Source: Bacteroidota bacterium
Lineage (GTDB): Bacteria; Bacteroidota; Bacteroidia; UKL13-3
Assembly (NCBI GenBank): GCA_051715425.1
Contig: JBPXJS010000041.1
Span: 336,360 to 400,359, forward strand
Direction of reading: 5' to 3'
Length of the DNA: 64,000 nucleotides
The notes under the pieces were generated by a model. It saw only the letters and a list, made by a program, of their open reading frames with translations, searched no databases and was not told where the DNA came from. Within the stretch, counting starts at the first letter, position 1; each line of letters opens with the position of its first letter. This document shows positions 6,787 through 24,383 of the stretch, in pieces. The position numbers and the translations under genes were made by a program.

Positions 6787-6792
6787 TCAACC

Positions 6793-7728: not shown

Positions 7729-7735
7729 TCCAATA

Positions 7736-8758
7736 ATGAAACTAGCGTTAATAGGACTTGGCCCTCATGGACTCCGTTTATTGGAGGCAGCAAAGAGAAT
7801 AAGTCAAATTACAACTGTTGCCGTCATTGACAGAGATGAGCAAAAATTAAACCTGCCTCAGGTAGCGGAAATTCCTCATAGGTTAAACGACCTCTCCTTG
7901 TTATGGACCAATCAAATTCAACCCGATATCTTGCTTATTGCAACAAATGGTCCGTCACACGCCCCCATTGCACTTGAAGCAATGGATCATGGGGTTAGCT
8001 ACTTGCTCATATCAAAACCTCTTGCCTGCACCACTGAAGACTGTATAAACCTGCTGGAGAAGTCTAAACAAAAAAATATTCGTATTGCTGTAGATCATGC
8101 CATAAGATATGATGATACATATAACTGGATTAAAAGTCAAATATCATCAGGTTCCTGGGGTGACATAAAAAGTATATATATACAGCGCCCTGGCATAGGA
8201 TTAGGTTGTCTTGGCGTTCACTCTATTGACATTGCCAATTTCTTAATGGAAGAACTTCCAGAAACGGTTACGGGATGGATAGATAAACCATACAATATTA
8301 ACCCCCGCGGTGCTGAATTTATAGACCCGGGAGGATTGGTAGTGCTAAACTACAGCAAAGAAAAACGCGCTGTTATTTCTCAAATTGAAACAGGATCAGG
8401 CCCTATGAGCGTGGAAATAATCTGTAATTATGCCAGAATTAAAGTTGACGAAAAATTTGGTCAACTTGAAGTTGTTTCCAGAGATAAAAATTATAAAGCC
8501 GGGCCTGGGAATCCGGTTCCATATATGAAAGAAATAAACCCGCATAACCAACCCGTTAAACATGATCTTATTCTTTTGATGGAAACTACAATACGGGATT
8601 TGTTAGAATCAGAAAATCCAAAAGCTGATACAGAAGCAGGACTAAACGCTGTTGCTATTCTTGCAGCAAGCTATCTTTCCCATCAGAATGGCAATACCCC
8701 TTACCCTTTTCCGCTTCATAAAGGCGAAGATCTTAAACTATTTTTACCCATTACCTGA
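7736..8758 (+). CDS. Gfo/Idh/MocA-family NAD(P) oxidoreductase.
   Basis: MKLALIGLGPHG N-terminal Rossmann. Start moved to an internal ATG just after the upstream stop (the track ORF starts at 7646). Confidence 0.65.
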   Translation: MKLALIGLGPHGLRLLEAAKRISQITTVAVIDRDEQKLNLPQVAEIPHRLNDLSLLWTNQIQPDILLIATNGPSHAPIALEAMDHGVSYLLISKPLACTTEDCINLLEKSKQKNIRIAVDHAIRYDDTYNWIKSQISSGSWGDIKSIYIQRPGIGLGCLGVHSIDIANFLMEELPETVTGWIDKPYNINPRGAEFIDPGGLVVLNYSKEKRAVISQIETGSGPMSVEIICNYARIKVDEKFGQLEVVSRDKNYKAGPGNPVPYMKEINPHNQPVKHDLILLMETTIRDLLESENPKADTEAGLNAVAILAASYLSHQNGNTPYPFPLHKGEDLKLFLPIT

Positions 8759-8760
8759 GA

Positions 8761-9723
8761 GTGAGACTGGCCCTTATTGGTTATGGAAATATTGCAAAAA
8801 AGCACATCGAGGTCTTTAAACACTTCGGGGTAAATATTATTGCCTCCTGCAACCGAAGCGAGGCTGGAAATGTTGCAGCTAAAGAGGAAGCGGGCATCAG
8901 GAAAACGTATACAAACTACATAGAAATGGCTGAAAAAGAAGCACCAGATGCCATTTTGGTTTGTGTAACTTTTGATAAAATATATGAGGTTACGAAAGCC
9001 CTGATACCTCTAAAAATTCCATTACTTATTGAAAAACCGGCCGGAACAAGTGTTGCAGAACTATTGGATCTGATAGCGCTCAAAAACAAGTATGAAACAA
9101 TCGTTCAGGTAGCCCTCAACAGACGACACTACTCCATATTTAATACCGCAATTAATGATATGGGAGGAATCCAGAATTTAACTTCTATGTCCATTGAATG
9201 GTCAGAAAATCCGATAAGAGCCATTGAAAAAAAGAATTATACTGAGTCAATGGCTGCTAAATTAATCTATGCGAATTCTATACACGGTTTGGACACTTTG
9301 CTCCATTTTCCAGGCGTTCCTGTAGAAGAACAAATAATAACAAAAAACTTTGATGGGAAATTTCGTTGTCAGATGCAATTGTCAGGATTAACCGGATCTG
9401 GAAAATTAATTCATTTTAACTCCTCATGGGACAATCCTGTTCCCTGGAGAATCGTAATGACATCAGCCGGTATCCGATATGTATTTGCACCGCTTGAAAC
9501 ATGTGTAAAATTGGACAGTAATGGGACAGAGACTATTTTAGAAGCCGACTCATTTGACAAACAATTTAAAGCAGGGTTTTATACCCAGGCCAAACATTTT
9601 ATGCAAATTATTTCTGAAAAACGGGTTCATCATGAACATGACCTTGATTCTTGCATTTCGGGAATGGTTATAGCAGAAAAATTCTATAAAAAACTTTTTC
9701 AAGACAAGTCTACCCAATTATAA
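8761..9723 (+). CDS. Gfo/Idh/MocA-family NAD(P) oxidoreductase (second copy).
   Basis: MRLALIGYGNIAKKHIEVF Rossmann. The LLIEKP motif is typical of this family. Confidence 0.7.
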   Translation: MRLALIGYGNIAKKHIEVFKHFGVNIIASCNRSEAGNVAAKEEAGIRKTYTNYIEMAEKEAPDAILVCVTFDKIYEVTKALIPLKIPLLIEKPAGTSVAELLDLIALKNKYETIVQVALNRRHYSIFNTAINDMGGIQNLTSMSIEWSENPIRAIEKKNYTESMAAKLIYANSIHGLDTLLHFPGVPVEEQIITKNFDGKFRCQMQLSGLTGSGKLIHFNSSWDNPVPWRIVMTSAGIRYVFAPLETCVKLDSNGTETILEADSFDKQFKAGFYTQAKHFMQIISEKRVHHEHDLDSCISGMVIAEKFYKKLFQDKSTQL

Positions 9724-9732
9724 TATTTAATT

Positions 9733-10428
9733 GTGAATATACTCGCCATTATACCAGCACGCGAAGGTTCCAAAAGAGTACCTAAAAAAAATTTCCGCCC
9801 TTTTGCAGAAAGTACCCTTACAGATATCGCTATTAAACAAGCCTTACAAAGCAAACTTATAAAAACAATTGCAGTAAGCTCAGATAGTAAGGAAGTGCTT
9901 GGTATAGCAAAGAAATATGAGCGAATAATTCCGATGGAGCGTCCGGTTGAATTATCAGATGATCATTCTCCCGCTATTGATTATGTGAGGCATACCTTAG
10001 CGGTACTGGAACAAAACCAGCAATTTGATATGGTTGTGATTCTGCAACCCAGTTCTCCGCTGCGAACAGCCGCTGATATTGATGCTACTATAGATATGCT
10101 GCTAAACCACAAGCATGCTGACTCAGCAGTTAGTGTAGTAAAGGTAAGCCACATGGTGCATCCGGTGAAATTAAAAACGATAAAAGACAATGAGCTCCTT
10201 CCTTTTATTGAAGATGAAAAAGGGCGATTTGCTTCCCAGGATTTACCTGATATTTATGTAAGGAACTGCGCTGTTTATGCAACCTGGCGAAAAGACCTTG
10301 AGACAAGACCTGATGTGATAGGAAAAAAAAGTATTGCCTACGTGATGCCTCCTGAAACATCGGTTGATATAAATGATATGATAGATTTTGAGTTTGCAGA
10401 ATACCTGTATAAAAAACAAATTTCTTGA
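9733..10428 (+). CDS. CMP-nonulosonic acid synthetase (acylneuraminate cytidylyltransferase family; NeuA/LegF/PseF-like).
   Basis: ILAIIPAREGSKRVPKKN and ILQPSSPLR motifs of CTP_transf_3. 231 aa. Confidence 0.8.
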   Translation: MNILAIIPAREGSKRVPKKNFRPFAESTLTDIAIKQALQSKLIKTIAVSSDSKEVLGIAKKYERIIPMERPVELSDDHSPAIDYVRHTLAVLEQNQQFDMVVILQPSSPLRTAADIDATIDMLLNHKHADSAVSVVKVSHMVHPVKLKTIKDNELLPFIEDEKGRFASQDLPDIYVRNCAVYATWRKDLETRPDVIGKKSIAYVMPPETSVDINDMIDFEFAEYLYKKQIS

Positions 10429-11874: not shown

Positions 11875-12885
11875 ATGTTATCAAATAAGTCAATTTTAAT
11901 AACCGGAGGAACAGGTTCTTTAGGTAAAGAACTTACCAAAACAATTCTAAGCAAATGGCCCGATGTGAAAAAGCTTATCATTTACTCAAGAGATGAGCAA
12001 AAGCAATTCCAGATGGAACAGGAATTTCCGGTAAGCAAATACCCTGCAGTACGTTATTTCATAGGCGATGTAAGAGATCTTGAAAGACTTAAACGCGCCT
12101 TAACCGGTGTGGATTACGTTATACATGCTGCGGCAATGAAACACGTACATATTGCCGAGTATAATCCGGATGAATGTGTGAAAACGAATGTAGGAGGGGC
12201 GGAAAATTTGATAAAGGCCGCGCTTGAAACTAATGTTAAAAAGGTAGTGGCGTTATCTACGGATAAGGCATGTGCTCCAATTAACCTTTATGGTGCCACT
12301 AAACTAACTTCAGACAAACTTTTTATAGCAGCCAATAATATCAAAGGATTCAAGGATATCAAATTCTCTGTTGTTCGTTACGGCAACGTCATGGGTTCAA
12401 ACGGCTCTGTTATTCCCTTTTTTATTAACAAGAAAAAAGAAGGTGTGTTGCCAATTACAGATCCCAATATGACCCGTTTTAATATCTCCCTTGCAGGTGG
12501 TGTTGATATGGTGCTGCATGCTTTAGAACATGCATGGGGTGGAGAATTATATGTACCTAAAATTCCTTCCTATAAAATAATGGACGTGGCAGAAGCGATA
12601 GGCCCGGAATGTGAACACAGGGTTTCAGGTATAAGACCCGGAGAGAAAATCCATGAAGAAATGATAACAAGTTCTGATTCATTCACCACTTATGATTTGG
12701 GTAAGTACTATGTTATTCTTCCACAGGAGCCTATCTGGGATTTGCAGGAATTTATTAAACAGTTTAATGCCAAACATGTGCCCGAAGGATTTAATTACAC
12801 ATCGGGTGAAAACACAGAGTGGGAAACTGTTGAAAGCCTCCGAAAATTAATTAAAGAACACGTTGATCCAACTTTTGTTGTATAA
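11875..12885 (+). CDS. pseB: UDP-N-acetylglucosamine 4,6-dehydratase (inverting), PseB / FlaA1-like.
   Basis: ILITGGTGSLGKEL Rossmann. STDKACAPINLYGATKL is the catalytic Y-x3-K region. 336 aa. Lies upstream of the PseC-like gene. Confidence 0.85.
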   Translation: MLSNKSILITGGTGSLGKELTKTILSKWPDVKKLIIYSRDEQKQFQMEQEFPVSKYPAVRYFIGDVRDLERLKRALTGVDYVIHAAAMKHVHIAEYNPDECVKTNVGGAENLIKAALETNVKKVVALSTDKACAPINLYGATKLTSDKLFIAANNIKGFKDIKFSVVRYGNVMGSNGSVIPFFINKKKEGVLPITDPNMTRFNISLAGGVDMVLHALEHAWGGELYVPKIPSYKIMDVAEAIGPECEHRVSGIRPGEKIHEEMITSSDSFTTYDLGKYYVILPQEPIWDLQEFIKQFNAKHVPEGFNYTSGENTEWETVESLRKLIKEHVDPTFVV

Positions 12886-12889
12886 AATA

Positions 12890-14044
12890 ATGAAACCAAT
12901 ACCATACGGAAAACAATACATTAACGAAGACGATCTGAAGGCAGTTACTGAAACGCTTCAATCTGATTTTCTTACCCAGGGACCTGCAATTGCTGAGTTT
13001 GAAAGTGCCTTTGCAACTTACACCGGTGCAAAATATGCTGTTGCATTAAGTAATGGAACGGCAGCTCTTCACCTATGTGCAATGGCATTGGATGTAAATG
13101 AAAAGAGTAATGTAATTACAACCCCAATTACATTTGCTGCATCAGCTAACTGCGTGAGGTACTGCGGTGGCAACGTTTTTTTCGCAGATATTAATCCCAA
13201 TACCTACACCCTTGATATTACAAAAGTCGAAGAACTGATTCTATCAAAACCTAAAGGATTCTTTCAAGGGATAATCCCGGTTGACTTTGCCGGATATGCT
13301 GTGAACCTGGAAGCATTCAGAAATCTGGCTGATAAACACGGCTTATGGATTATTGAAGATGCATGCCACGCCCCAGGAGGGTATTTTACAGATTCATCAG
13401 GTACCGAACAATTCTGCGGAAACGGAACTTATGCCGATATGGCTATTTTCTCCTTTCACCCGGTTAAACATATTGCATGTGGCGAAGGAGGAATGATTAC
13501 TACCAACAACGAAGACCTTTACAAAAAGCTTCTGTTACTGAGAACACATGGCATAACAAAAGATCCCAACCTGTTACACGAAAATCATGGCGCATGGTAT
13601 TATGAAATGCAAACTCTGGGGTATAACTACAGATTAACTGATTTTCAAGCCGCTTTGGGAACTTCACAATTAAAACGGGCGGATCAGGGTCTATTGCGAA
13701 GAAGAGAAATCGCTCAAACATATTTTGATGCTTTTAAAGATTGTGATTTCATAAAAGGACAATCAGGTGCGGTTGAGGGGCATGCCTATCACCTGTATAT
13801 CATTGAAACAGATAGACGAAAAGAATTGTATGATTTCCTGAGAAGCAAGAATATTTTTTGTCAGGTTCATTATATCCCGGTGCACACGCTGCCATACTAC
13901 ACTGAACTTGGACATAAAAAAGGTGATTATTATAATGCCGAACACTATTATAGCCAGTGTTTAAGTTTACCTATGTTTCCAACATTAAGTCATGAAGAAC
14001 AGACATATGTGATTCATCAGATAAAAGACTTTTTCAGTAACTAA
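12890..14044 (+). CDS. pseC: DegT/DnrJ/EryC1-family PLP aminotransferase, PseC-like (UDP-4-amino-4,6-dideoxy-L-AltNAc transaminase).
   Basis: YGKQYINEDDLKAV and FSFHPVKHIACGEGGMITT (PLP lysine region). Start set at MKPIPYG just after the pseB stop (the track ORF starts at 12863). Confidence 0.8.
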   Translation: MKPIPYGKQYINEDDLKAVTETLQSDFLTQGPAIAEFESAFATYTGAKYAVALSNGTAALHLCAMALDVNEKSNVITTPITFAASANCVRYCGGNVFFADINPNTYTLDITKVEELILSKPKGFFQGIIPVDFAGYAVNLEAFRNLADKHGLWIIEDACHAPGGYFTDSSGTEQFCGNGTYADMAIFSFHPVKHIACGEGGMITTNNEDLYKKLLLLRTHGITKDPNLLHENHGAWYYEMQTLGYNYRLTDFQAALGTSQLKRADQGLLRRREIAQTYFDAFKDCDFIKGQSGAVEGHAYHLYIIETDRRKELYDFLRSKNIFCQVHYIPVHTLPYYTELGHKKGDYYNAEHYYSQCLSLPMFPTLSHEEQTYVIHQIKDFFSN

Positions 14045-14087: not shown

Positions 14088-14951
14088 ATGTCTCCATCAG
14101 TCATTCTTGGTACTGTACAATTCGGCCTTCCTTATGGAATAAATAACTCCAGCGGTCAGGTAAGGAATGAAGAAGCAATAAAAGTGCTTTTGCTTGCTGC
14201 TGAACATGGAATAACCACCCTTGATACTGCTGAAGTATATGGAAACGCCCAGAAAATTATTGGCGATTTTCATCAACATCATGCCCAGCGGTTTCTAATT
14301 AATACCAAGTTTAAGGGCACAGAAAACAACACATTACTTGCCGAGTGCAAAAAAAGCCTCGCGGAGTTAAACATTTCACGTATTGAAACTTATTTCTTTC
14401 ATAGCTACCAGGACTATACCAACAAACCTGGCTTACGCTCAGAGCTTAGCGCTCTAAAAGAGCAAGGGCTTATAAGAAAAACCGGTCTTTCCATATATAC
14501 CAACGAGGAATTTGATACTGCCATTAACGACTCATCTATTGATACCATACAACTCCCGTTTAATTTACTTGACAACTATAACAAACGCGGTGCTTTGCTC
14601 AATAAAGCTAAACAATCAGGAAAATGCATTCAGGTAAGATCCGTTTTTCTTCAAGGTTTATTTTTTAAGCCTACAAATGAACTACCAGACTTTTTAATGC
14701 CACTTAAACCCTGGCTCGAAAAACTAAACTCACTTGCCAAAGCATATCAAACCAGCATGGAAACCCTTTGTTTACAATATGCAGCTTCCCAAAACCTGAT
14801 AGATGAGATTATTATAGGCGTTGATTCCTCTGAGCACCTGATAAGAAATCTTGCTTCACTAAACGAAAGATGTAACGAACAATTATTGCAGGAAATCAAT
14901 AACATAAACGTAGAAGAAACTTCCTTACTTTATCCTTTTAACTGGAAATAA
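14088..14951 (+). CDS. Aldo/keto reductase family oxidoreductase.
   Basis: ILGTVQFGLPYG and TLDTAEVYGN are AKR N-terminal motifs. Confidence 0.7.
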   Translation: MSPSVILGTVQFGLPYGINNSSGQVRNEEAIKVLLLAAEHGITTLDTAEVYGNAQKIIGDFHQHHAQRFLINTKFKGTENNTLLAECKKSLAELNISRIETYFFHSYQDYTNKPGLRSELSALKEQGLIRKTGLSIYTNEEFDTAINDSSIDTIQLPFNLLDNYNKRGALLNKAKQSGKCIQVRSVFLQGLFFKPTNELPDFLMPLKPWLEKLNSLAKAYQTSMETLCLQYAASQNLIDEIIIGVDSSEHLIRNLASLNERCNEQLLQEINNINVEETSLLYPFNWK

Positions 14952-14953
14952 CT

Positions 14954-15934
14954 ATGACTACTAAAACATATATTATCGCTGAAATAGCACAGGGTTTTGA
15001 AGGAAATCCCTGGTTATGCAAAAAATTTATTGAACTGGCAAAAAAGTCAGGAGCGGATGCTGTAAAATTTCAAATCTTCAGAGCAAGTGAAGTATGTACA
15101 GAGGACTATGTATACAATGAACTCTTTAATTCACTTGAGATTGACCCAAAAATCTGGACAGAGCTTATCAGCTACAGTAAATCCATAGGAATCGACTTTA
15201 TTTCCGATGTGGTTGGGATAGAAACATATGACTGGATAAGCAAAACAGACATTACCTCTTATAAAATCCATTCCACAGATCTGAAAAATTATCCCCTGCT
15301 AAAACATATTGGCAACAGAAAACACCGCATCTATGTTGGAATAGGTGGAAGTACTGCTGAAGAAATAGCTAAGGCGATAACCTTACTTGGAGATAGTGAC
15401 CTTGTTCTCCTCACAGGTTTTCAGGCAGAACCCAACCTGCTGGTTGATGTGGAACTTGATAAAATAAAGCTGTTGCAAAAAATGTTCAATCTGCCGGTAG
15501 GTTATGCAGACCATATTGATGCAAATGAAGACCTCGCTGTTGTATTGCCTTCAATGGCGGTGCTGGCCGGAGCCTCAACAATTGAGAAACACCTTACCAT
15601 TGACAGAAACAACCTTCAGATTGAAGACTATATTTCGGCTCTCAACTCTGATGAATTTATACGAATGGTTAACCTGATCAGAAACGTTGAGCAGTTTCCT
15701 TCTCAACAGGAATATAAGTTAAGTGACAGGGAAATTGAATACAGAAAAAAATCAAAGCGTGTAATTCTGGCTGCTAAAGATATTCCCGCAGGTCACACCA
15801 TTGATGCAAGTGATATTACCTTGCTGAGAACGGGAACCCCGGCAGAAATTCTAGATATTGATGAGGTAGTTCATAAACAAACCAAACGAGCATTTAAAAA
15901 ACTGGAAGTAATAACCAAAACGGAATTGATATGA
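14954..15934 (+). CDS. Divergent NeuB-family (SpsE-like) PEP-dependent sugar synthase (copy 2).
   Basis: YIIAEIAQGFEGNP, AVKFQIF, YKIHSTD and GYADHID align to NeuB family motifs. The metal-binding region is divergent. 326 aa. Confidence 0.65.
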   Translation: MTTKTYIIAEIAQGFEGNPWLCKKFIELAKKSGADAVKFQIFRASEVCTEDYVYNELFNSLEIDPKIWTELISYSKSIGIDFISDVVGIETYDWISKTDITSYKIHSTDLKNYPLLKHIGNRKHRIYVGIGGSTAEEIAKAITLLGDSDLVLLTGFQAEPNLLVDVELDKIKLLQKMFNLPVGYADHIDANEDLAVVLPSMAVLAGASTIEKHLTIDRNNLQIEDYISALNSDEFIRMVNLIRNVEQFPSQQEYKLSDREIEYRKKSKRVILAAKDIPAGHTIDASDITLLRTGTPAEILDIDEVVHKQTKRAFKKLEVITKTELI

Positions 15935-16668
15935 AATTAATAGCAACACTTGCCTGTAGAAACAATTCTAAGCGTCTTTACGGCAAACCAATGCAATTGC
16001 TGCAAACAAGAACTGTACTCGAGTATATTGTAAAAGGAATTGAAGCCAATGGAGAAGTAGATGAAATTGTGCTTGCTATCAGTTCTAAAACAGGAAACGA
16101 AATTTTTATTGAGGAAGCCAACAGACTTGGGGTAAGATACGTGCTTGGAGATGACAAAGATGTTCTTAAACGTTTAATTGATGCCTGTGAACTCGGAGGA
16201 GGAGATACCATTTATAGGGTAACCACCGAATCACCATTCCCATATATTGAAGGGTTAAAAAAAGCCAAAACTTCTCACGAGGAGCAACATGCAGATTATA
16301 CCACGTATTCCAACCTGCCTGATGGAAGCAGCTTTGAAATAGTAAGCCTGCGTGCTTTAAAAGCTTCTCATGAGCAAGGAGAAGATCGTCACAGGAGTGA
16401 GTTATGTACCTTGTATATGAATGAAAATAAATCCCGGTTTAAGTTCAATATTCTTGAAACACCGGAGGCTCTTCAACGTGCGGATTATCGTTTAACAATT
16501 GATTTTCCTGAAGACCTGATTCTTTGCCGTAAAATCATACTGGGTCTTGGCGGTGATACAAACTATATCCCTTTCGAAAAGATTATTTCTTTTCTTGATG
16601 CTGACCCGGAACTAAGAAAAACCGTAGCCAACCTGACAGATGAATCTTACATAAAATTCTTTCACTAA
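15931..16668 (+). CDS. SpsF-like cytidylyltransferase (CMP-sugar synthetase family, PseF/SpsF subgroup).
   Basis: MKLIATLACRNNSKRLYGKPM N-terminal nucleotide-binding motif. Overlaps the upstream NeuB-family gene by 4 bp. Confidence 0.65.
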   Translation: MKLIATLACRNNSKRLYGKPMQLLQTRTVLEYIVKGIEANGEVDEIVLAISSKTGNEIFIEEANRLGVRYVLGDDKDVLKRLIDACELGGGDTIYRVTTESPFPYIEGLKKAKTSHEEQHADYTTYSNLPDGSSFEIVSLRALKASHEQGEDRHRSELCTLYMNENKSRFKFNILETPEALQRADYRLTIDFPEDLILCRKIILGLGGDTNYIPFEKIISFLDADPELRKTVANLTDESYIKFFH

Positions 16669-18017
16669 TGAGACAAATCAGCAATTTCAGTAAATCTGAA
16701 GAATACCGTAAAAAAATTCACGACCTGATTCCCGGTGGAGGTCATACCTATTCCAAGGGAGACGATCAGTTTCCACAATTATCTCCTGCTGCAATACAAT
16801 ATGGCAAAGGAGCCTATGTATGGGATATTGACGGCAACCAGTACCTTGACTGTTCCATGGGATTAACTTCGGTTAGTCTTGGCCATGCTTATCCTGAAGT
16901 AACTGAGCGCGTAAAAAAGGAACTTGATTTTGGTGTAAACTTTCAACGTCCCTCCTATCTTGAAATGGAAATGGCGGAAAAGTTTCTATCCCTGATTCCG
17001 CAACACGATATGATTAAGTTTGCGAAAAACGGATCTATAGTTACTACAGCAGCAGTGAAACTAGCAAGGGCCCATACAGGAAGAAAACTTGTTGCGTTCC
17101 CCGGAGATCATCCTTTCTATTCATACGATGATTGGTTTATTGGAAAAACGGCATGCAATAAAGGTGTACCTGAAGAAATATCAGCACTCTCTGTAACTTT
17201 TCAGGGATGCAACTTGCAATCACTGAAAGAATTGTTTGAAAAGTATCCGGATCAGATTGCCTGTGTAATAACAGAGCCTGAAAGAAACCAATGCTATTAC
17301 AACTGTGCCTGTGGCGGCCAACCCGGAGCTTTCCTCGAAAAAGCGATAAAACTTTGCCATGAGCATGGGGCTTTATTTATTATTGATGAAATGATCACAG
17401 GATTTAAAACTGCTCTGCCAGGTTCTTTGGTGAAATATAACCTGAAACCGGATATGGCAACATGGGGAAAAGGTATTGCCAATGGCTTTTCCTTTTGCGC
17501 ACTCACTGGAACAAAAGAGGTAATGGAATTGGGTGGCATTCGAAACAAAGGTCAGGAAAAGGTATTTCTTACTTCTACCACACATGGTGGAGAAACACAT
17601 GCTATTGCAGCGGGTATTGCCTCCATAGACGTATTTCAAAAAAACAATGTCATTGCCCACAATCATGAAATCGGTAACTACTTTCTTGCTAAATGCAATG
17701 AAGTTATACAACATCATGAACTGACCAAATATGTACATCTGATGAATTGTAACTGGATGCCTGTATTTATATTCCGAAATTCAAAAGAGGAAATATGTCA
17801 GGGCATGCGTACGCTGGTATTACAGGAAATGATTAAGCGGGGAATCCTGTTTCAGGGAGCCTTTGTTCCCTGCTATTCCCATACAAAAGAAGACGTTGAT
17901 TATTTTGCCGAAGCCCTCGATCAGAGCCTTGTTATTTTCAAGCAAGCCCTTCACAATGGATATGAATCATATCTTACTGGCGAACCTGCAAAAGCTGTTT
18001 TTAGAAAATTATTATAA
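16668..18017 (+). CDS. Class III PLP aminotransferase (glutamate-1-semialdehyde aminomutase-like).
   Basis: GGGHTYSKG, DIDGNQYLDCSMGLTSVSLGH, IIDEMITGFK and MATWGKGIANGFS (PLP Lys) are hallmarks of class III aminotransferases. Confidence 0.75.
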   Translation: MRQISNFSKSEEYRKKIHDLIPGGGHTYSKGDDQFPQLSPAAIQYGKGAYVWDIDGNQYLDCSMGLTSVSLGHAYPEVTERVKKELDFGVNFQRPSYLEMEMAEKFLSLIPQHDMIKFAKNGSIVTTAAVKLARAHTGRKLVAFPGDHPFYSYDDWFIGKTACNKGVPEEISALSVTFQGCNLQSLKELFEKYPDQIACVITEPERNQCYYNCACGGQPGAFLEKAIKLCHEHGALFIIDEMITGFKTALPGSLVKYNLKPDMATWGKGIANGFSFCALTGTKEVMELGGIRNKGQEKVFLTSTTHGGETHAIAAGIASIDVFQKNNVIAHNHEIGNYFLAKCNEVIQHHELTKYVHLMNCNWMPVFIFRNSKEEICQGMRTLVLQEMIKRGILFQGAFVPCYSHTKEDVDYFAEALDQSLVIFKQALHNGYESYLTGEPAKAVFRKLL

Positions 18018-18035: not shown

Positions 18036-19238
18036 ATGAGCGAATTAAAAAGATGTAAAAAATGTCTCCTTCCTGAGACTCACGAAACGATCATTTTTGA
18101 TGATGACGGAATCTGCAGTGTTTGCAGACAAAATGAATTTAAAAAAGAAAAAATCGACTGGACTTCTAAAAAAGGAGAACTTGATGAACTTATTGCACAG
18201 TATAAAGGAACCGGTGACTACGACTGTATCGTTCCGTTTAGCGGTGGTAAGGACAGTACCTGGACCTTGTATTATCTGATGAAAGAATACAAACTAAAGC
18301 CACTTGTGGTGAGGTTTGACCATGGTTTTCTTCGTCCCAACCTGAATGAAAACACCATTAAGGTATTGAGAAACCTTGGGGCCGATTTCCATTCTTTTAC
18401 CCCAAACTGGAAAGTGGTACAAAGATTAATGTTGCAAAGTTTTCTTGAAAAAGGAGATTTTTGCTGGCATTGTCATACCGGTATTTATTCTTACCCTATG
18501 TGGGTAGCTATCCGATACAATATTCCTTTAATTTTCTGGGGCGAACCATCTTCAGAGTATACTTCATACTATAGTTATGATCAATCTGAAGAGGTTGATG
18601 AAAAAAGATTCAACAGGTATATAAACCTTGGTATTAATGCCCTGGATATGGCTGTAAGAATTGGCGGTGATATAGATGAGCGTGATTTTAAACCATACTC
18701 TTATCCTCCATTAAAGGAGCTGAGAAGAATTGGTTACAGATCAGTTTGTCTTGGTTCCTATATTCCATGGGATGTAAGAACACAATCTGAAATAATAAAC
18801 AAAGAACTTGGCTGGCAGGGCGACCGTGTTGAAAATGTACCGGCTGAATACAGCTATGAGAAAATTGAGTGCTATATGCAGGGTGTGCGCGATTATATCA
18901 AATACATTAAACGAGGATATACCAGACCAACTCACCTTGCTTCAATAGATATCCGCAATGACCGGATGGAGAGAAGCAAAGGCCTGGATCTGATCAATCA
19001 GTTTGAAGGTAAAAAACCACCAAGTTTGGAAATATTCCTTGAGTTGGTTGGTTTAACAGAAGATGAATTTTTTGAGATCGCGAAAAGTCATACCGTTTCT
19101 CCGTGGAAGCTTAATGTATTTGAGCAGGAAATAGGAGAAAAATTACCTGACTTCAGCAAATGGTCGAGAGAAGGACGTGCGCAAAGGGATAAGGCGATGG
19201 AACAAATCGAACATTGGAAAAAATCTTCCGGCTTATAA
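18036..19238 (+). CDS. N-acetyl sugar amidotransferase (PP-loop ATP pyrophosphatase; WbuX/WbpG/LegX-like).
   Basis: N-terminal Cys-rich CKKCLLPET...CSVC motif. PP-loop IVPFSGGKDST. Followed directly by HisH/HisF paralogs. Confidence 0.75.
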   Translation: MSELKRCKKCLLPETHETIIFDDDGICSVCRQNEFKKEKIDWTSKKGELDELIAQYKGTGDYDCIVPFSGGKDSTWTLYYLMKEYKLKPLVVRFDHGFLRPNLNENTIKVLRNLGADFHSFTPNWKVVQRLMLQSFLEKGDFCWHCHTGIYSYPMWVAIRYNIPLIFWGEPSSEYTSYYSYDQSEEVDEKRFNRYINLGINALDMAVRIGGDIDERDFKPYSYPPLKELRRIGYRSVCLGSYIPWDVRTQSEIINKELGWQGDRVENVPAEYSYEKIECYMQGVRDYIKYIKRGYTRPTHLASIDIRNDRMERSKGLDLINQFEGKKPPSLEIFLELVGLTEDEFFEIAKSHTVSPWKLNVFEQEIGEKLPDFSKWSREGRAQRDKAMEQIEHWKKSSGL

Positions 19239-19241
19239 AAT

Positions 19242-19859
19242 ATGATTGGTATCGTAGATTACGGAATGGGTAATCTTTTATCCGTGTACAGCGCATTCGA
19301 TTACCTCGGAGAGGATGTAAAAATATGTCATCATCCGGAGGAACTTCTATCAGTTGATAAGATTGTGATTCCGGGTGTTGGCGCATTTAAAGATTGTATT
19401 GAAAAACTAAACTCCAGTGGTTTTACAGAAGCATTACATGAAAACACAATAACCAAGGCAAAACCTACTATGGGCATTTGTCTCGGGATGCAGGTGATGG
19501 CCAAATCGAGTCTTGAGGGGGGGGAGTATGAAGGTCTTGGATGGTTTGATGCCAGCGTCATTCGCCTCCATCCGGGTGATAAGGATAAAAAGGTACCCAA
19601 TATCGGATGGAATGATATCACTTATAACTCTTCTGTACCTCTGTTTAAGGGGTTACCCCAAAAACCGGATTTTTATCTTGTACATTCTTATTATATGAAA
19701 TGCAACAATCCCGGTCTGGTGGTTGCTTCATATGAATACGGGCATCAGGTAACGGCTGCCGTATTAAAAGATAATATCTTTGCAACACAGTTTCATCCGG
19801 AAAAAAGCCAGGATTACGGATTAAGAATATTAGAAAATTTTATTGACTGGAACCCCTGA
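19242..19859 (+). CDS. HisH-like class I glutamine amidotransferase subunit (WbuY-like).
   Basis: MIGIVDYGMGNLLSV, IVIPGVGAF, GICLGMQ (catalytic Cys) and FHPEKS. Contains a G8 homopolymer at 19517-19524. Confidence 0.85.
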   Translation: MIGIVDYGMGNLLSVYSAFDYLGEDVKICHHPEELLSVDKIVIPGVGAFKDCIEKLNSSGFTEALHENTITKAKPTMGICLGMQVMAKSSLEGGEYEGLGWFDASVIRLHPGDKDKKVPNIGWNDITYNSSVPLFKGLPQKPDFYLVHSYYMKCNNPGLVVASYEYGHQVTAAVLKDNIFATQFHPEKSQDYGLRILENFIDWNP

Positions 19860-19861
19860 TC

Positions 19862-20647
19862 ATGTCAAAAGCCAGATTAATTCCTAAACTTCAGCTTCGC
19901 AGAAGCTCTCAGAATCCATCAAGAATGGTACTGGTGATTACAAAGCAATTTGATACCCCAATTGAAATTGCTGATCCTGTATCGCAAGCCAAAATTTTTC
20001 AGGCACAGGCTGCTGATGAATTAATCTTTATCAATATAGATAAGGAACAAAAGGATATCAATAAATTGGCTGAAATCATTCATAAAGTTTCTGAAGAAAT
20101 ATTTATGCCCATTACAGTGGGCGGAGGAGTTAGCACTGAAGAACATTTCAGGATTCTGCTTGCCAATGGTGCTGATAAAATATCTATTAATACCATTGCA
20201 GTAGAAGATCCTTCTTTCATTACCCGCACCTCAGAAAAATTTGGTGCTCAGTGCGTGGTAGTGAGTATTGACTACCGACAGGAAGCAGATGGAACTTATT
20301 CTGTTTATACAATGGGCGGACAGAAACAAACGAATTTGCATCCTGTTGAATGGGCCATGGAAGCCGAAAGGCTTGGTGCAGGCGAAATTTTATTGTCAAG
20401 CATCGATCATGATGGAATGAGAAACGGGCTAAACCTTGAAGTAACACGAATGGTGGCCGATAAACTTTCCATCCCATTAATCACCTCAGGTGGTTGCGGA
20501 CTTGCACAACATTTTTCCGAAGGATTTCTTAAAGGCAGAGCTGATGCAGTTGCTGCGGGTAACTTCTTTGCTCACAGAGACCAGAATCTGATGCAAACCC
20601 GATCACAAATAAAAAACGCAGGAATTAACATCCGGGTGCATACCTGA
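19862..20647 (+). CDS. HisF-like cyclase/synthase subunit (WbuZ-like).
   Basis: TVGGGVST, ISINT, VVVSIDYR and EILLSSIDHDGM are TIM-barrel HisF motifs. Confidence 0.85.
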   Translation: MSKARLIPKLQLRRSSQNPSRMVLVITKQFDTPIEIADPVSQAKIFQAQAADELIFINIDKEQKDINKLAEIIHKVSEEIFMPITVGGGVSTEEHFRILLANGADKISINTIAVEDPSFITRTSEKFGAQCVVVSIDYRQEADGTYSVYTMGGQKQTNLHPVEWAMEAERLGAGEILLSSIDHDGMRNGLNLEVTRMVADKLSIPLITSGGCGLAQHFSEGFLKGRADAVAAGNFFAHRDQNLMQTRSQIKNAGINIRVHT

Positions 20648-20654
20648 TTACGCA

Positions 20655-21668
20655 TTGAAAAAAATAATACTAAGAGCAGACGGAAATTCTGCAATAGGTT
20701 TGGGTCATGTATATAGGCTGCTTTCCATTGCCAATATAGCCGGAAAAGACTTTGATGTTTGTTTTGTAATAAACAATCCGGAACCTTTTCTTCTTGACCT
20801 GTTAAACATGCATGTGAATAAGGTTATTTCCCTAAATGAAACACATGATTATTCATCACCTTCTATAAAGGATAAAGAAACAGAAATAGCATTTGATATG
20901 GATGGTATTTTAACCGGTGAAGAGATTGTAGTAACAGATGGATACTGGTTTGGAAAACAATATCAGCAGGCTGTAAAAGCAACAGGATGCAAATTGGTTT
21001 GTATAGATGATTTTGCTACCAACCATTTTTACGCAGATGTTGTGATCAATCATGCACCTGGAATACAACCATCACTCTACTCATCAGAACCTTATACAAA
21101 ATTTTGTCTGGGTTTGGATTATGCCATGTTGAGAAATGAATTTTATAGCACGTTTGCTCCGGTTGAAAAACGAGAAAAAGTACTCCTTATCTCAATGGGT
21201 GGAAGCGATGAATTCAAGCTCACTGGAAAATTTCTGCCTTCTATCATCAACAAGGGCGAATTTAAAGCCATTCATATTCTTATCTCTCCCTTATTTGATA
21301 AAGAACACCTGAACCAGATTAATCATTATGTATCCAATCCCAGTCTGAATATAAGATTACATAGCAATCTTACTGCAAAAGATCTTGTACATGTTATGGA
21401 TTCCTGCGCACATGCATTTGTTTCGGCAAGCACTGTTTTATTTGAGGCTTACAGCAGAGGGTTGATTTGTATAACAGGTTATTATACCGGCAACCAACAG
21501 AATATTTACAATGGATTTACCTCTCAAAAACTTGCACATGGTTTGGGTGATCTGAAAACGTTGGAACAAATTTCTTTTCATCATTTAAATGATAGCACAT
21601 TAATCCCTTTGCTTCAACCAATGAAGTCAGATAAAAATCTAAAAAATATTTTCCTTTCTCTATGTTAA
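20655..21668 (+). CDS. pseG: PseG-like UDP-2,4-diacetamido-2,4,6-trideoxy-L-altropyranose hydrolase.
   Basis: N-terminus KKIILRADGNSAIGLGHVYRLLSIA matches the PseG family start. About 337 aa, GT-B-like. Confidence 0.7.
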   Translation: MKKIILRADGNSAIGLGHVYRLLSIANIAGKDFDVCFVINNPEPFLLDLLNMHVNKVISLNETHDYSSPSIKDKETEIAFDMDGILTGEEIVVTDGYWFGKQYQQAVKATGCKLVCIDDFATNHFYADVVINHAPGIQPSLYSSEPYTKFCLGLDYAMLRNEFYSTFAPVEKREKVLLISMGGSDEFKLTGKFLPSIINKGEFKAIHILISPLFDKEHLNQINHYVSNPSLNIRLHSNLTAKDLVHVMDSCAHAFVSASTVLFEAYSRGLICITGYYTGNQQNIYNGFTSQKLAHGLGDLKTLEQISFHHLNDSTLIPLLQPMKSDKNLKNIFLSLC

Positions 21669-23324: not shown

Positions 23325-24383
23325 ATGAACAACACATTTGATATTGGTAAATTTAAGGTAGGCGATGGTCAGCCTGTATTTATTATTGCCGAGCTTTCCT
23401 GTAATCACCAGCAGGATTTTGAACTGGCAAGAAAATCCGTTCTGGCTATGAAAGAATGTGGCGTTGATGCCGTGAAGCTTCAAACAGCCAAACCGTCATC
23501 CATTACCATAAAAGCAGATACTGAGTATTTTAAAATAAAGGGAGGTACCTTATGGGACAATAAAACCCTTTACGATCTTTATTCTGAAGTGTATACCCCA
23601 TGGGAATGGCATAAACCCCTTCAGGAGTTGAGTGAAAGTCTGGGTATGACATTCTTCTCTTCTCCCTTTGATCATGAAGCTGTTGATTTTTTAGAACAAC
23701 ATCAGGTTCCTGCATACAAAATTGCATCCTTTGAAATTACGGATATCCCACTTATTAAATATACAGCCGGTAAGGGCAAACCGATTATTATTTCTACCGG
23801 CATTGCAAATGAAGAAGATATAAAAGATGCCGTTGAAGCCTGTCATTCTGTTGGAAACTATCAGATAGCCTTATTAAAATGTACTTCGGCCTACCCAACT
23901 CCACTTGAGGAAGTAAATCTGAATGTAATACCCGAATTGAAAAGAAAATTTAATACAATTATTGGACTTTCAGATCATACACTTGGTAGTCTGGTTCCAA
24001 CCGGGGCCGTAGCACTTGGAGCACGCATTATAGAGAAACATTTTATTTTAGACAGAAAGCTGGGTGGGCCAGATGCCGCCTTTTCTATGGAACCACATGA
24101 ATTTAAGGCGATGATTGATACCGTAAGGGATCTTGAAAAAGCAATGGGCAAAAGTGAAATTATCATTTCCGAAAAAGTTGAAAAAAACAGACAATTTGCA
24201 CGCTCGCTTTTCATCGTAGAAGATGTAAAAAAGGGCGACTTGCTTACACCTGAAAACGTGAGATCAATACGACCAGGATATGGCATAAGACCTAAACATC
24301 TTGAAAATATACTTGGAAAAAGAGTAACCAGAGATATAGAAAAAGGAACCCCATTGGATTTTAATATGATTGACGCATCATGA
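23325..24383 (+). CDS. pseI: Pseudaminic acid synthase PseI (NeuB family, copy 3).
   Basis: Close full-length resemblance to characterised PseI: FIIAELSCNH, VKLQT, FSSPFD, AYKIASFE, LLKCTSAYPTP, GLSDHTLG and a C-terminal SAF domain. Confidence 0.9.
   Translation: MNNTFDIGKFKVGDGQPVFIIAELSCNHQQDFELARKSVLAMKECGVDAVKLQTAKPSSITIKADTEYFKIKGGTLWDNKTLYDLYSEVYTPWEWHKPLQELSESLGMTFFSSPFDHEAVDFLEQHQVPAYKIASFEITDIPLIKYTAGKGKPIIISTGIANEEDIKDAVEACHSVGNYQIALLKCTSAYPTPLEEVNLNVIPELKRKFNTIIGLSDHTLGSLVPTGAVALGARIIEKHFILDRKLGGPDAAFSMEPHEFKAMIDTVRDLEKAMGKSEIIISEKVEKNRQFARSLFIVEDVKKGDLLTPENVRSIRPGYGIRPKHLENILGKRVTRDIEKGTPLDFNMIDAS

What the first reader, a model, noticed from the sequence alone, without database searches (positions are those of the whole stretch)
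14088..18017. Third, divergent NeuB-family synthase co-located with an SpsF-like cytidylyltransferase, an aldo/keto reductase and a class III aminotransferase
The NeuB-like ORF at 14954-15934 keeps the fold motifs, but its metal/PEP site is divergent (GYADHID in place of the SDHS-type motif). It is translationally coupled to an SpsF-type cytidylyltransferase. An AKR and a glutamate-semialdehyde-aminomutase-like aminotransferase flank it. This four-gene cassette does not match the canonical Pse, Leg or Neu routes. It may make a different keto-deoxy acid (octulosonic or nonulosonic) or an aminated variant.
Basis: inference. Interest (0 to 1): 0.6.

Follow-up and report, generated by a model that had tools for sequence, protein, structure and literature searches.

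The report
Extra synthase–activase pair in pseudaminic-acid locus
Four tightly packed genes sit inside an otherwise ordinary operon for a bacterial sialic-acid-like surface sugar; the same genes recur in many phyla, no study I could find has tested them, and they probably make a modified, probably extra-aminated, form of that sugar.

Summary
Four ORFs at 14088-18017 encode an aldo/keto reductase (AKR), a divergent NeuB-family synthase (NeuB3), an SpsF-type cytidylyltransferase (CT) and a GSAM-like class III aminotransferase (AT3). They are separated by a 2-nt gap, a 4-nt overlap and a 1-nt overlap.

The cassette is not a stand-alone route. It lies between PseB-PseC and WbuX-HisH-HisF-PseG-...-PseI. 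The order PseB-PseC-AKR-NeuB3-CT-AT3-PseG-PseI recurs across about ten phyla (all four genes together in 32 of 47 fully flanked loci).

It resolves into two sub-modules:
- **NeuB3+CT.** This pair co-evolves and is fused in Priestia, B. cereus, Nitrospiria and Methanosarcinales. It supplies the Pse branch's only cytidylyltransferase, since PseF is absent.
- **AKR+AT3.** This pair also occurs without NeuB3. It is noted but unexplained in Aeromonas and Legionella papers.

NeuB3 keeps every metal and catalytic residue and models as a NeuB fold (pLDDT 95). It forms its own deep clade, distinct from B. subtilis SpsE. Its sugar pocket is remodelled and the serine triad I recall as PEP-phosphate ligands is degenerate.

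Best reading: a variant pseudaminic-acid pathway whose product is redox/transamination-tailored around the CMP-activation step. The exact product and the reason for two synthases remain unknown. Verdict: new variant of a known kind, moderate interest.

The parts
11875..12885 (+). PseB, UDP-GlcNAc 4,6-dehydratase (inverting). Upstream context of the cassette.
   Evidence: TIGR03589 scores 506, above its cutoff of 408.
12863..14044 (+). PseC aminotransferase (DegT family).
   Evidence: TIGR03588 scores 467, above its cutoff of 423.5.
14088..14951 (+). Aldo/keto reductase, the redox partner of the tailoring pair.
   Evidence: PF00248, E=4e-34. The catalytic tetrad D46/Y51/K74/H105 is at least 90% conserved in 43 locus homologues. 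The gene is present in 34 of 47 fully flanked NeuB3 loci. Some loci carry a GFO/IDH/MocA oxidoreductase where the AKR would be.
14954..15934 (+). NeuB3, a divergent NeuB-family nonulosonate synthase (TIM barrel plus SAF domain).
   Evidence: PF03102 E=1.2e-43 plus SAF. It scores below the NeuB and PseI equivalog cutoffs. The AlphaFold model has pLDDT 95 and TM 0.88 to NmNeuB 2wqp. The catalytic residues are conserved and the pocket is remodelled. It forms its own clade.
15931..16668 (+). SpsF-type cytidylyltransferase, coupled to NeuB3 by an ATGA overlap. It is the only CT available to the Pse branch.
   Evidence: PF02348, E=1.2e-16, with no NCBIfam equivalog hit. It starts within 150 nt of the NeuB3 stop in 65 of 78 loci. 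It is fused to NeuB3 in four lineages. Only two CTs exist in all six frames of the window. R10, R15, K19, E100 and P102 are at least 95% conserved.
16668..18017 (+). GSAM-like class III (fold-type I) PLP aminotransferase.
   Evidence: PF00202, E=2e-40. NF004856 scores 533, above its cutoff of 486, whereas hemL TIGR00713 scores 186, below its cutoff of 527. The PLP lysine K268 and D240 are invariant. The gene is present in 42 of 47 loci. It is fused to the CT in L033.
18036..20647 (+). WbuX / HisH / HisF(WbuZ) trio, which forms acetamidino groups on N-acetyl sugars. Immediately downstream of the cassette.
   Evidence: TIGR03573 scores 343. TIGR01855 scores 227. TIGR03572 scores 273. The same arrangement occurs in L010.
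20655..21668 (+). PseG, the UDP-sugar hydrolase.
   Evidence: TIGR03590 scores 164, above its cutoff of 154.
23325..24383 (+). PseI, the canonical pseudaminic acid synthase and the second synthase of the same branch.
   Evidence: TIGR03586 scores 481, above its cutoff of 340.
9733..10428 (+). The only other cytidylyltransferase in the window (NeuA/PseF-like). It lies at the end of the upstream NeuB1-NeuC module.
   Evidence: TIGR03584 scores 138, below its cutoff of 206. There is no BLAST-level similarity to the SpsF-type CT.

Best explanation
The four genes are an accessory block of a variant pseudaminic-acid (Pse) pathway, not a separate route.

SHOWN:
- They lie inside a complete Pse operon. 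That operon order is conserved across many phyla.
- NeuB3 and the SpsF-type CT are a co-inherited pair that is sometimes fused.
- The loci normally lack a PseF-type CT.
- AKR and AT3 recur together, and each is found fused to the CT in some lineage.

INFERRED:
1. The SpsF-type CT does PseF's job and makes the CMP-activated nonulosonate.
2. NeuB3 is an active, metal-dependent synthase. It condenses a three-carbon donor (PEP by homology) with an N-acylated 6-deoxy-hexosamine taken from the PseB/PseC/PseG steps. This is probably a variant that PseI does not accept, for example one with a free or cationic amino group. NeuB3 then hands its product directly to the CT.
3. AKR (or a GFO/IDH/MocA oxidoreductase in some loci) and AT3 form an oxidoreductase/transaminase pair that acts on the cytidine-nucleotide-linked sugar. 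They convert a hydroxyl (C8 or C4) to an amino group through a keto intermediate.
4. The neighbouring amidotransferase trio and acyl/formyl-transferases then decorate the new amine.

The end product would be a Pse-type sugar with an extra nitrogen substituent.
For: Context:
- PseB, PseC, PseG and PseI all pass their equivalog cutoffs around the cassette.

Recurrence in 47 NeuB3 loci with full flanks:
- CT 44, AT3 42, AKR 34, PseI 41, PseB 32, PseC 32, PseG 30.
- A PseF/NeuA-type CT is present in only 8.
- All four cassette genes occur together in 32.
- The hosts span Bacteroidota, four proteobacterial classes, Nitrospirota, Planctomycetota, Omnitrophota, Actinomycetota, Bdellovibrionota and Methanosarcinales.

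Fusions:
- NeuB3::CT in L023, L072 and L084 and in B. cereus L170.
- CT::AT3 in L033.
- CT::AKR in a Vibrio Pse cluster that lacks NeuA (PMC7371886).

CT as the PseF substitute:
- Only two CTs exist in the window for three synthases.
- The seven-gene Bacillus Pse operon has an SpsF-type CT as its only CT. From memory, Li et al. 2015 made CMP-Pse in vitro with the homologous seven enzymes.

NeuB3 competence, 74 homologues, NmNeuB number first:
- E25=E10, 74/74.
- K53=K38, 73/74.
- K129=K104, 74/74.
- H215=H187, 74/74.
- E234=E211, 74/74.
- H236=H213, 74/74.
- D247=D225, 74/74.
- R314=R292, 74/74.
- The model has pLDDT 95 and TM 0.88 to NmNeuB.

Pocket change:
- N29-H30 is replaced by G-F/Y.
- G131 is replaced by H (65/74).
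- P246 is replaced by E (73/74).
- Y186 is replaced by E (39/74).

AKR/AT3 as a redox/amination pair:
- Both active sites are intact.
- AT3 is accompanied by an AKR or GFO oxidoreductase in 38 of 42 loci.
- AT3 also sits next to NeuA-type CTs in NeuC-containing loci.
- Its sister clade sits with glucose-1-P cytidylyltransferase in 27 of 64 loci.
- An 8-amino manno-nonulosonate is known from another Bacteroidota, Tenacibaculum maritimum, and its biosynthesis is undescribed (PMC3210612).
Against: - No biochemistry exists for any of the four proteins.
- The need for two synthases feeding one CT is not explained by any direct evidence.
- B. thuringiensis IS5056 has lost the NeuB3 barrel and keeps only SAF::CT. 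Its protein is 60% identical to the C-terminal part of the B. cereus fusion. The barrel is therefore dispensable in at least one lineage.
- AKRs usually reduce rather than oxidise, so the direction of the AKR step is uncertain.
- AKR+AT3 occur without NeuB3 (L091, L168, Aeromonas). NeuB3+CT occur without AKR/AT3 (L005, L087). The two halves therefore need not act on the same intermediate.
- In NeuB3 the three serines I recall as PEP-phosphate ligands in NmNeuB are degenerate (position 107: S27/G27/A10; position 129: S35/G34/A5; position 185: never S). PEP use is therefore not assured.
- A few loci (L019, L020, L047) have NeuB3-CT with no Pse genes within about 10 kb.
Confidence: 0.45

Rival explanations
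1. The cassette is a self-contained route to a different CMP-activated keto-deoxy acid, such as an octulosonate or a non-Pse nonulosonate. AKR and AT3 prepare the aldose. NeuB3 condenses it. The CT activates it.
For: - NeuB3-CT, with or without AKR, occurs without nearby Pse genes in L019, L020 and L047.
- NeuB3's pocket is remodelled and its serine triad is degenerate.
- NeuB3 is the deepest branch among the NeuB-family sequences compared.
Against: - The cassette sits between PseC and PseG in most loci, and PseI is present in 41 of 47.
- On this reading the Pse branch would have no CT at all.
- R292, the N-acyl-binding Arg314 of NmNeuB, is invariant, which argues for an N-acyl hexosamine substrate.
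- No gene in the cassette could supply an independent sugar backbone.
Confidence: 0.15
2. NeuB3 is largely redundant with PseI, or acts mainly as a structural or ligand-binding partner of the CT. Its SAF domain would be the important part. On this reading nothing chemically new is made by NeuB3, and only AKR and AT3 tailor the sugar.
For: - B. thuringiensis IS5056 retains only SAF::CT. It lies in the same operon position as the B. cereus NeuB3::SAF::CT and is 60% identical over 318 aligned positions.
- Aeromonas group I islands and L091 work with AKR-CT-AT3 and PseI alone (PMC7874193).
Against: - All catalytic and metal residues are invariant across 74 sequences from about ten phyla.
- NeuB3 and PseI are both retained in 41 of 47 loci, which is unexpected for redundant paralogues.
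Confidence: 0.2
3. AKR and AT3 do not add an amine. They might remove one (transaminate an amine to a ketone, then reduce it to a hydroxyl). They might epimerise a centre by oxidation and reduction, giving a stereoisomer or a 7-hydroxy analogue of Pse. Or they might make an N-acyl side chain.
For: - AKRs normally act as NADPH-dependent reductases (general knowledge).
- The Vibrio strain with the CT::AKR fusion appears to make a PseAc2 isomer with a different configuration (PMC7371886).
- L. pneumophila non-Sg1 loci with AKR, AT3 and an SpsF-type CT make a 4-epi-legionaminic-type polymer (PMC3694923 and its reference 98).
- ATP-grasp ligases accompany AT3 in 15 of 15 cases where a ligase is present.
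Against: - Removing an amine that PseC has just installed would be wasteful.
- An aminotransferase is not needed for epimerisation.
- AT3 pairs with GFO/IDH/MocA dehydrogenases in some loci. From general knowledge, that is the classic hydroxyl-to-ketone-to-amine pairing (WbpB/WbpE, GnnA/GnnB).
Confidence: 0.15
4. It is simply the known SpsE/SpsF legionaminic acid pair of Bacillus subtilis type.
For: - JGI labels homologues 'SpsE' and 'SpsF'.
- The synthase-CT adjacency resembles spsE-spsF (PMC7439481).
Against: - In the NJ tree B. subtilis SpsE (1vli) falls among the PseI/LegI-like sequences, not with NeuB3. It shares 30% identity with NeuB3 and 39% with the PseI group.
- The loci carry PseB (inverting), PseC, PseG and PseI. 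NeuC-type genes occur in only 3 of 47.
- Bacillus-type SpsF-like CTs are only 25-27% identical to the NeuB3-coupled CT.
Confidence: 0.03

Closest known systems
Canonical CMP-pseudaminic acid pathway (PseB, PseC, PseH, PseG, PseI, PseF) of Helicobacter and Campylobacter
   Same: PseB, PseC, PseG and PseI equivalogs are all present around the cassette, together with GNAT candidates for PseH.
   Different: There is no PseF equivalog. An SpsF-type CT stands in its place. A second, deeply divergent synthase, an AKR and a class III aminotransferase are inserted between PseC and PseG.
Bacillus thuringiensis/cereus seven-gene Pse operon (Pen, Pal, PseC-type, CT, PseG-, PseH-, PseI-type; Li et al. 2015, cited as reference 43 in PMC7439481; details from memory)
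   Same: An SpsF-type CT lies between pseC and pseG and is the only CT. In B. cereus BC38B that gene is a 585-aa NeuB3::SAF::CT fusion whose barrel is 35% identical to the window's NeuB3.
   Different: The Bacillus operon has no AKR or AT3. In B. thuringiensis IS5056 the barrel has been deleted. The CT is only about 25% identical to the window's CT.
Aeromonas group I flagellin glycosylation islands (pseB-pseC-AKR-pseF-class III aminotransferase-pseG-(pseH)-pseI; PMC7874193)
   Same: The AKR and class III aminotransferase flank the CT inside a Pse locus in the same way. The associated glycan in A. hydrophila AH-1 is an unsolved 403-Da Pse-like sugar (PMC4691044).
   Different: No second synthase is reported there. 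The functions of the AKR and the aminotransferase were not tested. I could not check whether the Aeromonas 'PseF' is SpsF-type.
Neisseria meningitidis NeuB and Campylobacter jejuni PseI (PDB 1xuz/2wqp, 8h2c)
   Same: Same two-domain fold (TM 0.88 and 0.86). Same metal ligands, catalytic Glu and Lys residues, and N-acyl-binding Arg.
   Different: Identity is 22-26%. The Ser132/154/213 triad is degenerate. The NH motif is replaced by G-F/Y. There are new invariant H106, Q157 and E224 and a 5-6 residue insertion after the DH motif. NeuB3 scores below both equivalog cutoffs.
Dehydrogenase plus aminotransferase pairs that aminate sugar hydroxyls (WbpB/WbpE, GnnA/GnnB; KdnB/KdnA for 8-amino-Kdo). 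These are recalled from memory as analogies.
   Same: An oxidoreductase and a PLP aminotransferase are co-inherited next to a nucleotide-activating enzyme. GFO/IDH/MocA enzymes replace the AKR in some loci.
   Different: Here the aminotransferase is a GSAM-like class III enzyme, not DegT-type. The reductase is an AKR. The substrate, position and direction are unknown.

Membership tests
NeuB / sialic acid synthase family (PF03102 + SAF) | NeuB TIM-barrel domain followed by a C-terminal SAF (antifreeze-like) domain. | tested here: met
   PF03102 E=1.2e-43 and PF08666 E=2.4e-7. The model has pLDDT 95, TM 0.88 to 2wqp and 0.86 to 8h2c.
NeuB / sialic acid synthase family (PF03102 + SAF) | Metal-binding His pair, catalytic Glu residues, the two Lys residues that bind PEP, and the trans-acting Arg of the SAF domain (NmNeuB E25, K53, K129, H215, E234, H236, D247, R314; the roles are recalled from the NmNeuB literature). 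| tested here: met
   E10, K38, K104, H187, E211, H213, D225 and R292 are conserved in 73-74 of 74 homologues.
NeuB / sialic acid synthase family (PF03102 + SAF) | Serine triad that binds the PEP phosphate (NmNeuB S132, S154, S213; role recalled from memory). | tested here: not met
   Position 107: S27/G27/A10. Position 129: S35/G34/A5 (the window has G). Position 185: A45/M18/Q6, never S. In PseI the counts are S61/61, S57/61 and S61/61.
NeuB / sialic acid synthase family (PF03102 + SAF) | Catalyses PEP plus aldose condensation. | not testable with these tools
   Requires an enzyme assay.
PseI equivalog (TIGR03586) | Whole-protein score at or above the curated cutoff of 340.25. | tested here: not met
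   NeuB3 scores 135.8. The window's true PseI (23325-24383) scores 480.8.
NeuB_NnaB equivalog (TIGR03569) | Whole-protein score at or above the curated cutoff of 399.65. | tested here: not met
   NeuB3 scores 183.6.
SpsE/SpsF legionaminic acid route (B. subtilis) | Synthase orthologous to SpsE, set in a Leg-type context. | tested here: not met
   SpsE (1vli) clusters with the PseI/LegI-like group and outside the NeuB3 clade. The context is PseB/PseC/PseG/PseI, and NeuC occurs in 3 of 47 loci.
CMP-ulosonate cytidylyltransferases (PF02348 CTP_transf_3) | Domain match and the N-terminal nucleotide-binding Arg/Lys motif. | tested here: met
   PF02348 E=1.2e-16. R10, R15 and K19 are at least 95% conserved in 66 homologues, and E100-x-P102 stands in place of the GDxP motif.
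PseF equivalog (TIGR03584) | Score at or above the cutoff of 205.7. | tested here: not met
   The SpsF-type CT has no NCBIfam hit at E<=1e-5. The window's other CT scores 138.3.
Glutamate-1-semialdehyde aminomutase (HemL) | hemL equivalog score (TIGR00713, cutoff 527.3) and a tetrapyrrole context. | tested here: not met
   It scores 186.3. It does pass the provisional NF004856 model (533 vs 486). The context is a glycan locus.
Class III (fold-type I) PLP aminotransferases | Domain match plus the PLP lysine and the pyridine-binding Asp. | tested here: met
   PF00202 E=2e-40. K268 and D240 are invariant in 15 diverse homologues.
Aldo/keto reductase superfamily | Domain match plus the Asp-Tyr-Lys-His catalytic tetrad. 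| tested here: met
   PF00248 E=4e-34. D46, Y51, K74 and H105 are at least 90% conserved in 43 homologues.

The most novel reading that the evidence does not exclude
NeuB3 plus its dedicated CT would define a previously unrecognised branch of nonulosonic acid biosynthesis, present in about ten phyla. In it a synthase with a re-engineered, more acidic sugar pocket and a degenerate phosphate-binding triad takes an amino- or cationic hexose, or a donor other than PEP. Together with AKR and AT3 it would yield a triamino sugar, such as an 8-amino-Pse of the kind seen in Tenacibaculum, or another backbone not yet assigned to any pathway.
Probability: 0.25. Interest if true: 0.75.

Novelty: new variant of a known kind. 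Interest (0 to 1): 0.55.

Why it matters
Nonulosonic acids such as pseudaminic acid coat flagella, capsules and O-antigens. They affect motility, immune evasion and phage or antibody recognition.

A conserved four-gene addition to the Pse pathway, found from Bacteroidota to archaea and in cultivable Bacillus, Priestia, Polynucleobacter and (in part) Aeromonas and Legionella, points to a common sugar variant with no assigned biosynthesis. It could account for unsolved glycans such as the 403-Da flagellin sugar of A. hydrophila AH-1, or the 8-amino nonulosonate of Tenacibaculum.

It also corrects annotation. 'Glutamate-1-semialdehyde aminomutase', 'SpsF spore coat protein' and 'N,N'-diacetyllegionaminate synthase' are all misleading names in this context.

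The natural fusions give ready-made constructs for testing.

Tried and rejected
1. Known SpsE/SpsF legionaminic pair. Rejected on the tree and on context.
2. Pseudo-enzyme lacking catalytic residues. Rejected.
3. A hidden third CT in the window that would serve PseI. None was found in six-frame searches with five CT queries and a CT profile, nor in the Pfam scans of the ORFs up to 52.6 kb.
4. Whether the B. thuringiensis SAF domain is closer to the NeuB3 or the PseI SAF profile. Inconclusive, at 16.6 bits each. The question was settled instead by direct homology to the B. cereus fusion.
5. Whether the E159/Y159 dimorphism in NeuB3 tracks the presence of AT3. By inspection of a few examples only, with no tally run, it does not appear to. 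The AT3-less L005-type members carry E. From the locus identities I expected the Y variants to be the more distant, AT3-containing members.
6. Literature. I found only descriptive mentions of the AKR, the aminotransferase and the SpsF-like CT in Pse loci (PMC7874193, PMC3694923, PMC7371886) and no functional study. The B. thuringiensis pathway paper (Li 2015) is not held, so its content is cited from memory.
7. PDB sequence search for the AKR. No hit at E<=1e-10.
8. Contexts of NeuB3-CT without Pse genes (L019, L047). These gave heterogeneous neighbours and no clear substrate clue.
9. Naming the source organism. The cluster look-up returned no names. The best synteny is with a Bacteroidia MAG, L010.

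Full report
**Observation.**

Each hits the expected family:
- 14088-14951, aldo/keto reductase: PF00248, E=4e-34.
- 14954-15934, NeuB domain plus SAF domain: PF03102, E=1.2e-43; PF08666.
- 15931-16668, CTP_transf_3 cytidylyltransferase: PF02348, E=1.2e-16.
- 16668-18017, class III aminotransferase: PF00202, E=2e-40. NCBIfam NF004856 scores 533 against a cutoff of 486. The true hemL model scores only 186 against a cutoff of 527.

The junctions are a 2-nt gap, an ATGA overlap and a TAATG overlap. All four genes therefore form one translationally coupled block.

The window holds three NeuB paralogues. It holds only two cytidylyltransferases in any of the six frames.

**Surroundings.**

The window is a 64-kb glycan locus in which every ORF of at least 150 aa that does not lie inside a longer plus-strand ORF is on the plus strand. 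A UpxY antiterminator lies near its start, which is the Bacteroidota style.

The cassette is not isolated:
- Directly upstream are PseB and PseC.
- Directly downstream are the WbuX/HisH/HisF acetamidino trio, PseG, a formyltransferase-like gene and a GNAT.
- Beyond those lies a bona fide PseI, which scores 481 against a cutoff of 340.
- A separate NeuB1-NeuC module, ending in a NeuA/PseF-like CT, occupies 1.9-10.4 kb.

The Pse branch therefore has two synthases (NeuB3 and PseI). The SpsF-type CT is its only obvious activating enzyme.

**Recurrence.**

A profile of NeuB3 homologues found 87 species-level genomes, and 80 loci were kept. I scored the six-frame ORFs of those loci with the window's proteins.

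The order PseB-PseC-AKR-NeuB3-CT-AT3-PseG-...-PseI appears again and again. The hosts are Bacteroidota, Alpha-, Beta-, Gamma- and Delta-proteobacteria, Nitrospirota, Planctomycetota, Omnitrophota, Actinomycetota, Bdellovibrionota and Methanosarcinales.

Counts in the 47 loci with full flanks:

| Gene | Loci |
|---|---|
| CT | 44 |
| AT3 | 42 |
| AKR | 34 |
| PseI | 41 |
| PseB | 32 |
| PseC | 32 |
| PseG | 30 |
| PseF/NeuA-type CT | 8 |
| NeuC | 3 |
| All four cassette genes | 32 |

The CT starts within 150 nt of the NeuB3 stop in 65 of 78 loci. The closest synteny is a Bacteroidia MAG (L010), which even shares the WbuX/HisH/HisF trio after AT3.

**Two sub-modules.**

NeuB3+CT occurs without AKR and AT3 in L005 and L087. 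There a GFO/IDH/MocA oxidoreductase and an SDR follow the CT.

AKR+AT3 occurs without NeuB3 in several places:
- L168, whose AT3 is 80% identical to the window's, has PseC-AKR-AT3 directly adjacent.
- L091 has PseB-PseC-AKR-...-SpsF-like CT-GNAT-AT3-...-PseI.
- The Aeromonas group I flagellin glycosylation islands are described as pseB-pseC-AKR-pseF-class III aminotransferase-pseG-pseI (PMC7874193).
- The L. pneumophila Sg6/12 O-antigen region has the pair (PMC3694923).

In L086 a GFO/IDH/MocA enzyme takes the AKR's place beside AT3-NeuB3-CT. AT3 is accompanied by an AKR or GFO oxidoreductase in 38 of 42 loci.

**Fusions.**

The CT is the hub of the cassette:
- NeuB3::SAF::CT single proteins occur in a Nitrospiria MAG (582 aa), Priestia megaterium (576 aa) and a Methanosarcinales MAG (598 aa).
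- The same fusion occurs as an intact 585-aa ORF on B. cereus BC38B plasmid p1, between pseC and pseG. Its barrel is 35% identical to the window's NeuB3, with E=3e-46.
- CT::AT3 is fused in a Nitrospirae MAG.
- A CT::AKR fusion is reported in a Vibrio Pse cluster that lacks NeuA (PMC7371886).

In B. thuringiensis IS5056 the same operon position holds only a 331-aa SAF::CT. It is 60% identical to the C-terminal 316 residues of the B. cereus fusion, so the barrel has been deleted there.

From memory, the homologous seven-enzyme B. thuringiensis operon was shown to make CMP-Pse in vitro (Li et al. 2015, reference 43 of PMC7439481; the paper itself is not held). That supports the SpsF-type CT as a PseF substitute. 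It also shows that the NeuB3 barrel is dispensable in at least one lineage.

**Is NeuB3 an enzyme?**

I mapped the sequence onto N. meningitidis NeuB numbering through the HMMER alignment to 2wqp. I then counted residues in 74 NeuB3 and 61 PseI sequences from the loci.

The conserved residues are E25=E10, K53=K38, Q55=Q40, K129=K104, D214/H215=D186/H187, E234=E211, H236=H213, D247=D225 and R314=R292. Each is present in 73-74 of 74 NeuB3 sequences. Their roles are as I recall them from the NmNeuB literature. PDB entries 4ipi and 4ipj are R314 mutants.

The AlphaFold model is confident, with pLDDT 95 and pTM 0.89. It superposes on NmNeuB (TM 0.88) and C. jejuni PseI (TM 0.86).

The clade has its own signature:
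- Q-G-F/Y replaces the x-N-H motif.
- H106 replaces Gly or Ala (65/74).
- G-F-Q replaces C-T-S/N (Q in 74/74).
- E224 replaces Pro or Val (73/74).
- E159 replaces Tyr in about half of the sequences.
- There is a 5-6 residue insertion after the DH motif.
- The three serines I recall as PEP-phosphate ligands are degenerate, whereas they are essentially invariant in PseI.

In an NJ tree NeuB3 is monophyletic and forms the deepest split. NmNeuB, CjPseI, Leptospira NeuB and B. subtilis SpsE all fall on the other side. NeuB3 is therefore not the SpsE of the legionaminic route.

The other three proteins also look active:
- The AKR tetrad D46/Y51/K74/H105 is conserved.
- The CT nucleotide-binding residues are conserved.
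- The AT3 PLP lysine K268 and D240 are invariant.

**What AT3 may act on.**

An AT3-anchored scan of metagenome contigs shows that the family is broader than the Pse context. Close relatives sit beside SpsF-type or NeuA-type CTs, in both Pse-type and NeuC-containing loci.

A sister clade, about 44% identical and found in Shinella and Rhizobium chromids, sits in a different module. Of 64 such loci, 27 carry glucose-1-phosphate cytidylyltransferase, 21 PIG-L, 17 DUF4910 and 13 an SDR.

In both settings the aminotransferase accompanies a cytidylyltransferase and an oxidoreductase. From this I infer that the family transaminates cytidine-nucleotide-linked keto-sugars.

An 8-amino-3,5,7,8,9-pentadeoxy-manno-nonulosonic acid is known from the O-antigen of Tenacibaculum maritimum, a Bacteroidota (PMC3210612). 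A product of the proposed kind therefore exists in nature.

**Mechanism proposed.**

Shown:
- The cassette is embedded in a Pse operon.
- The arrangement is conserved across phyla.
- The fusions exist.
- The active-site residues are intact.
- PseF is absent.

Inferred:
1. The SpsF-type CT makes the CMP-nonulosonate.
2. NeuB3 is a second synthase that takes an N-acyl 6-deoxy-hexosamine variant, perhaps one carrying a free amine given the added acidic residues, and channels its product to the CT.
3. AKR (or GFO) and AT3 replace a hydroxyl by an amine on the activated sugar.
4. The amidotransferase trio and the acyl/formyl transferases decorate that amine.

The weakest point is why two synthases are kept.

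**Comparison and novelty.**

The AKR, the class III aminotransferase and the SpsF-like CT have each been noticed in Pse loci. In the ten full-text searches available I found no functional study.

As far as I could find, the following are undescribed:
- the NeuB3 clade itself;
- its obligate coupling and fusion to a dedicated CT sub-clade, which is only 25-27% identical to Bacillus-type SpsF-like CTs;
- its degenerate serine triad.

This is a new variant of a known kind of pathway, not a new kind of system. It is widespread rather than peculiar to this window.

Noticed in passing
window 1916-2938, 14954-15934, 23325-24383 versus 9733-10428 and 15931-16668: There are three NeuB-family synthases but only two CTP_transf_3 cytidylyltransferases in all six frames of the 64-kb window. 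At least one CT must therefore serve two synthases.
   Followed up: yes
L170 8986-10743 (B. cereus BC38B plasmid p1, NZ_CP109873.2) and L088 8776-9771 (B. thuringiensis IS5056 pIS56-328): An intact 585-aa NeuB3::SAF::CT ORF lies between pseC and pseG. The plasmid gene table lists only its C-terminal 334 aa, as an 'NTP transferase domain-containing protein'. The B. thuringiensis counterpart is a 331-aa SAF::CT that lacks the barrel. This looks like a clean domain deletion within one species group.
   Followed up: yes
window 24380-25093 and 26676-27962; L171 (Shinella sp. HZN7 pShin-03): A PIG-L deacetylase and a DUF4910/M28-peptidase-like protein lie downstream of PseI. DUF4910, PIG-L, an SDR and glucose-1-P cytidylyltransferase recur next to the sister clade of AT3 in rhizobial chromids and in soil metagenomes. 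This may be a second uncharacterised amino-sugar module that shares parts with this one.
   Followed up: partly
window 1365-10428: An upstream NeuB1-NeuC module carries a formyltransferase-like gene, a polysaccharide deacetylase, a D-2-hydroxyacid dehydrogenase, two GFO/IDH/MocA oxidoreductases and a NeuA/PseF-like CT. NeuB1 scores below both the NeuB and PseI cutoffs (292 vs 400; 221 vs 340), so this nonulosonate is also of uncertain type.
   Followed up: no
window 687-1193: A UpxY-family transcription antiterminator (139 bits, cutoff 100) sits at the head of the locus. This marks a Bacteroidota-type capsule or O-antigen operon.
   Followed up: no
window 30568-32157, 37310-39163, 49825-51636: Further along the locus are a Capsule_synth (KpsS/KpsC-like) protein that could be the nonulosonate transferase, an AsnB-like amidotransferase and a carbamoyltransferase. 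They suggest additional amide or carbamoyl decoration of the polymer.
   Followed up: no
L010 2185-3950: The most syntenic relative (a Bacteroidia MAG) carries a second, much more divergent NeuB3-like plus SpsF-like CT pair about 8 kb upstream of the main one (scores 136 and 77).
   Followed up: no
L037 2894-4600 and L049 1738-3500: Some NeuB3 loci also contain an SpsE-like synthase, an SpsF-like CT and a PseG/SpsG-like gene, reminiscent of the B. subtilis spsE-F-G arrangement. SpsF-type CTs therefore exist in several sub-clades within a single locus.
   Followed up: no
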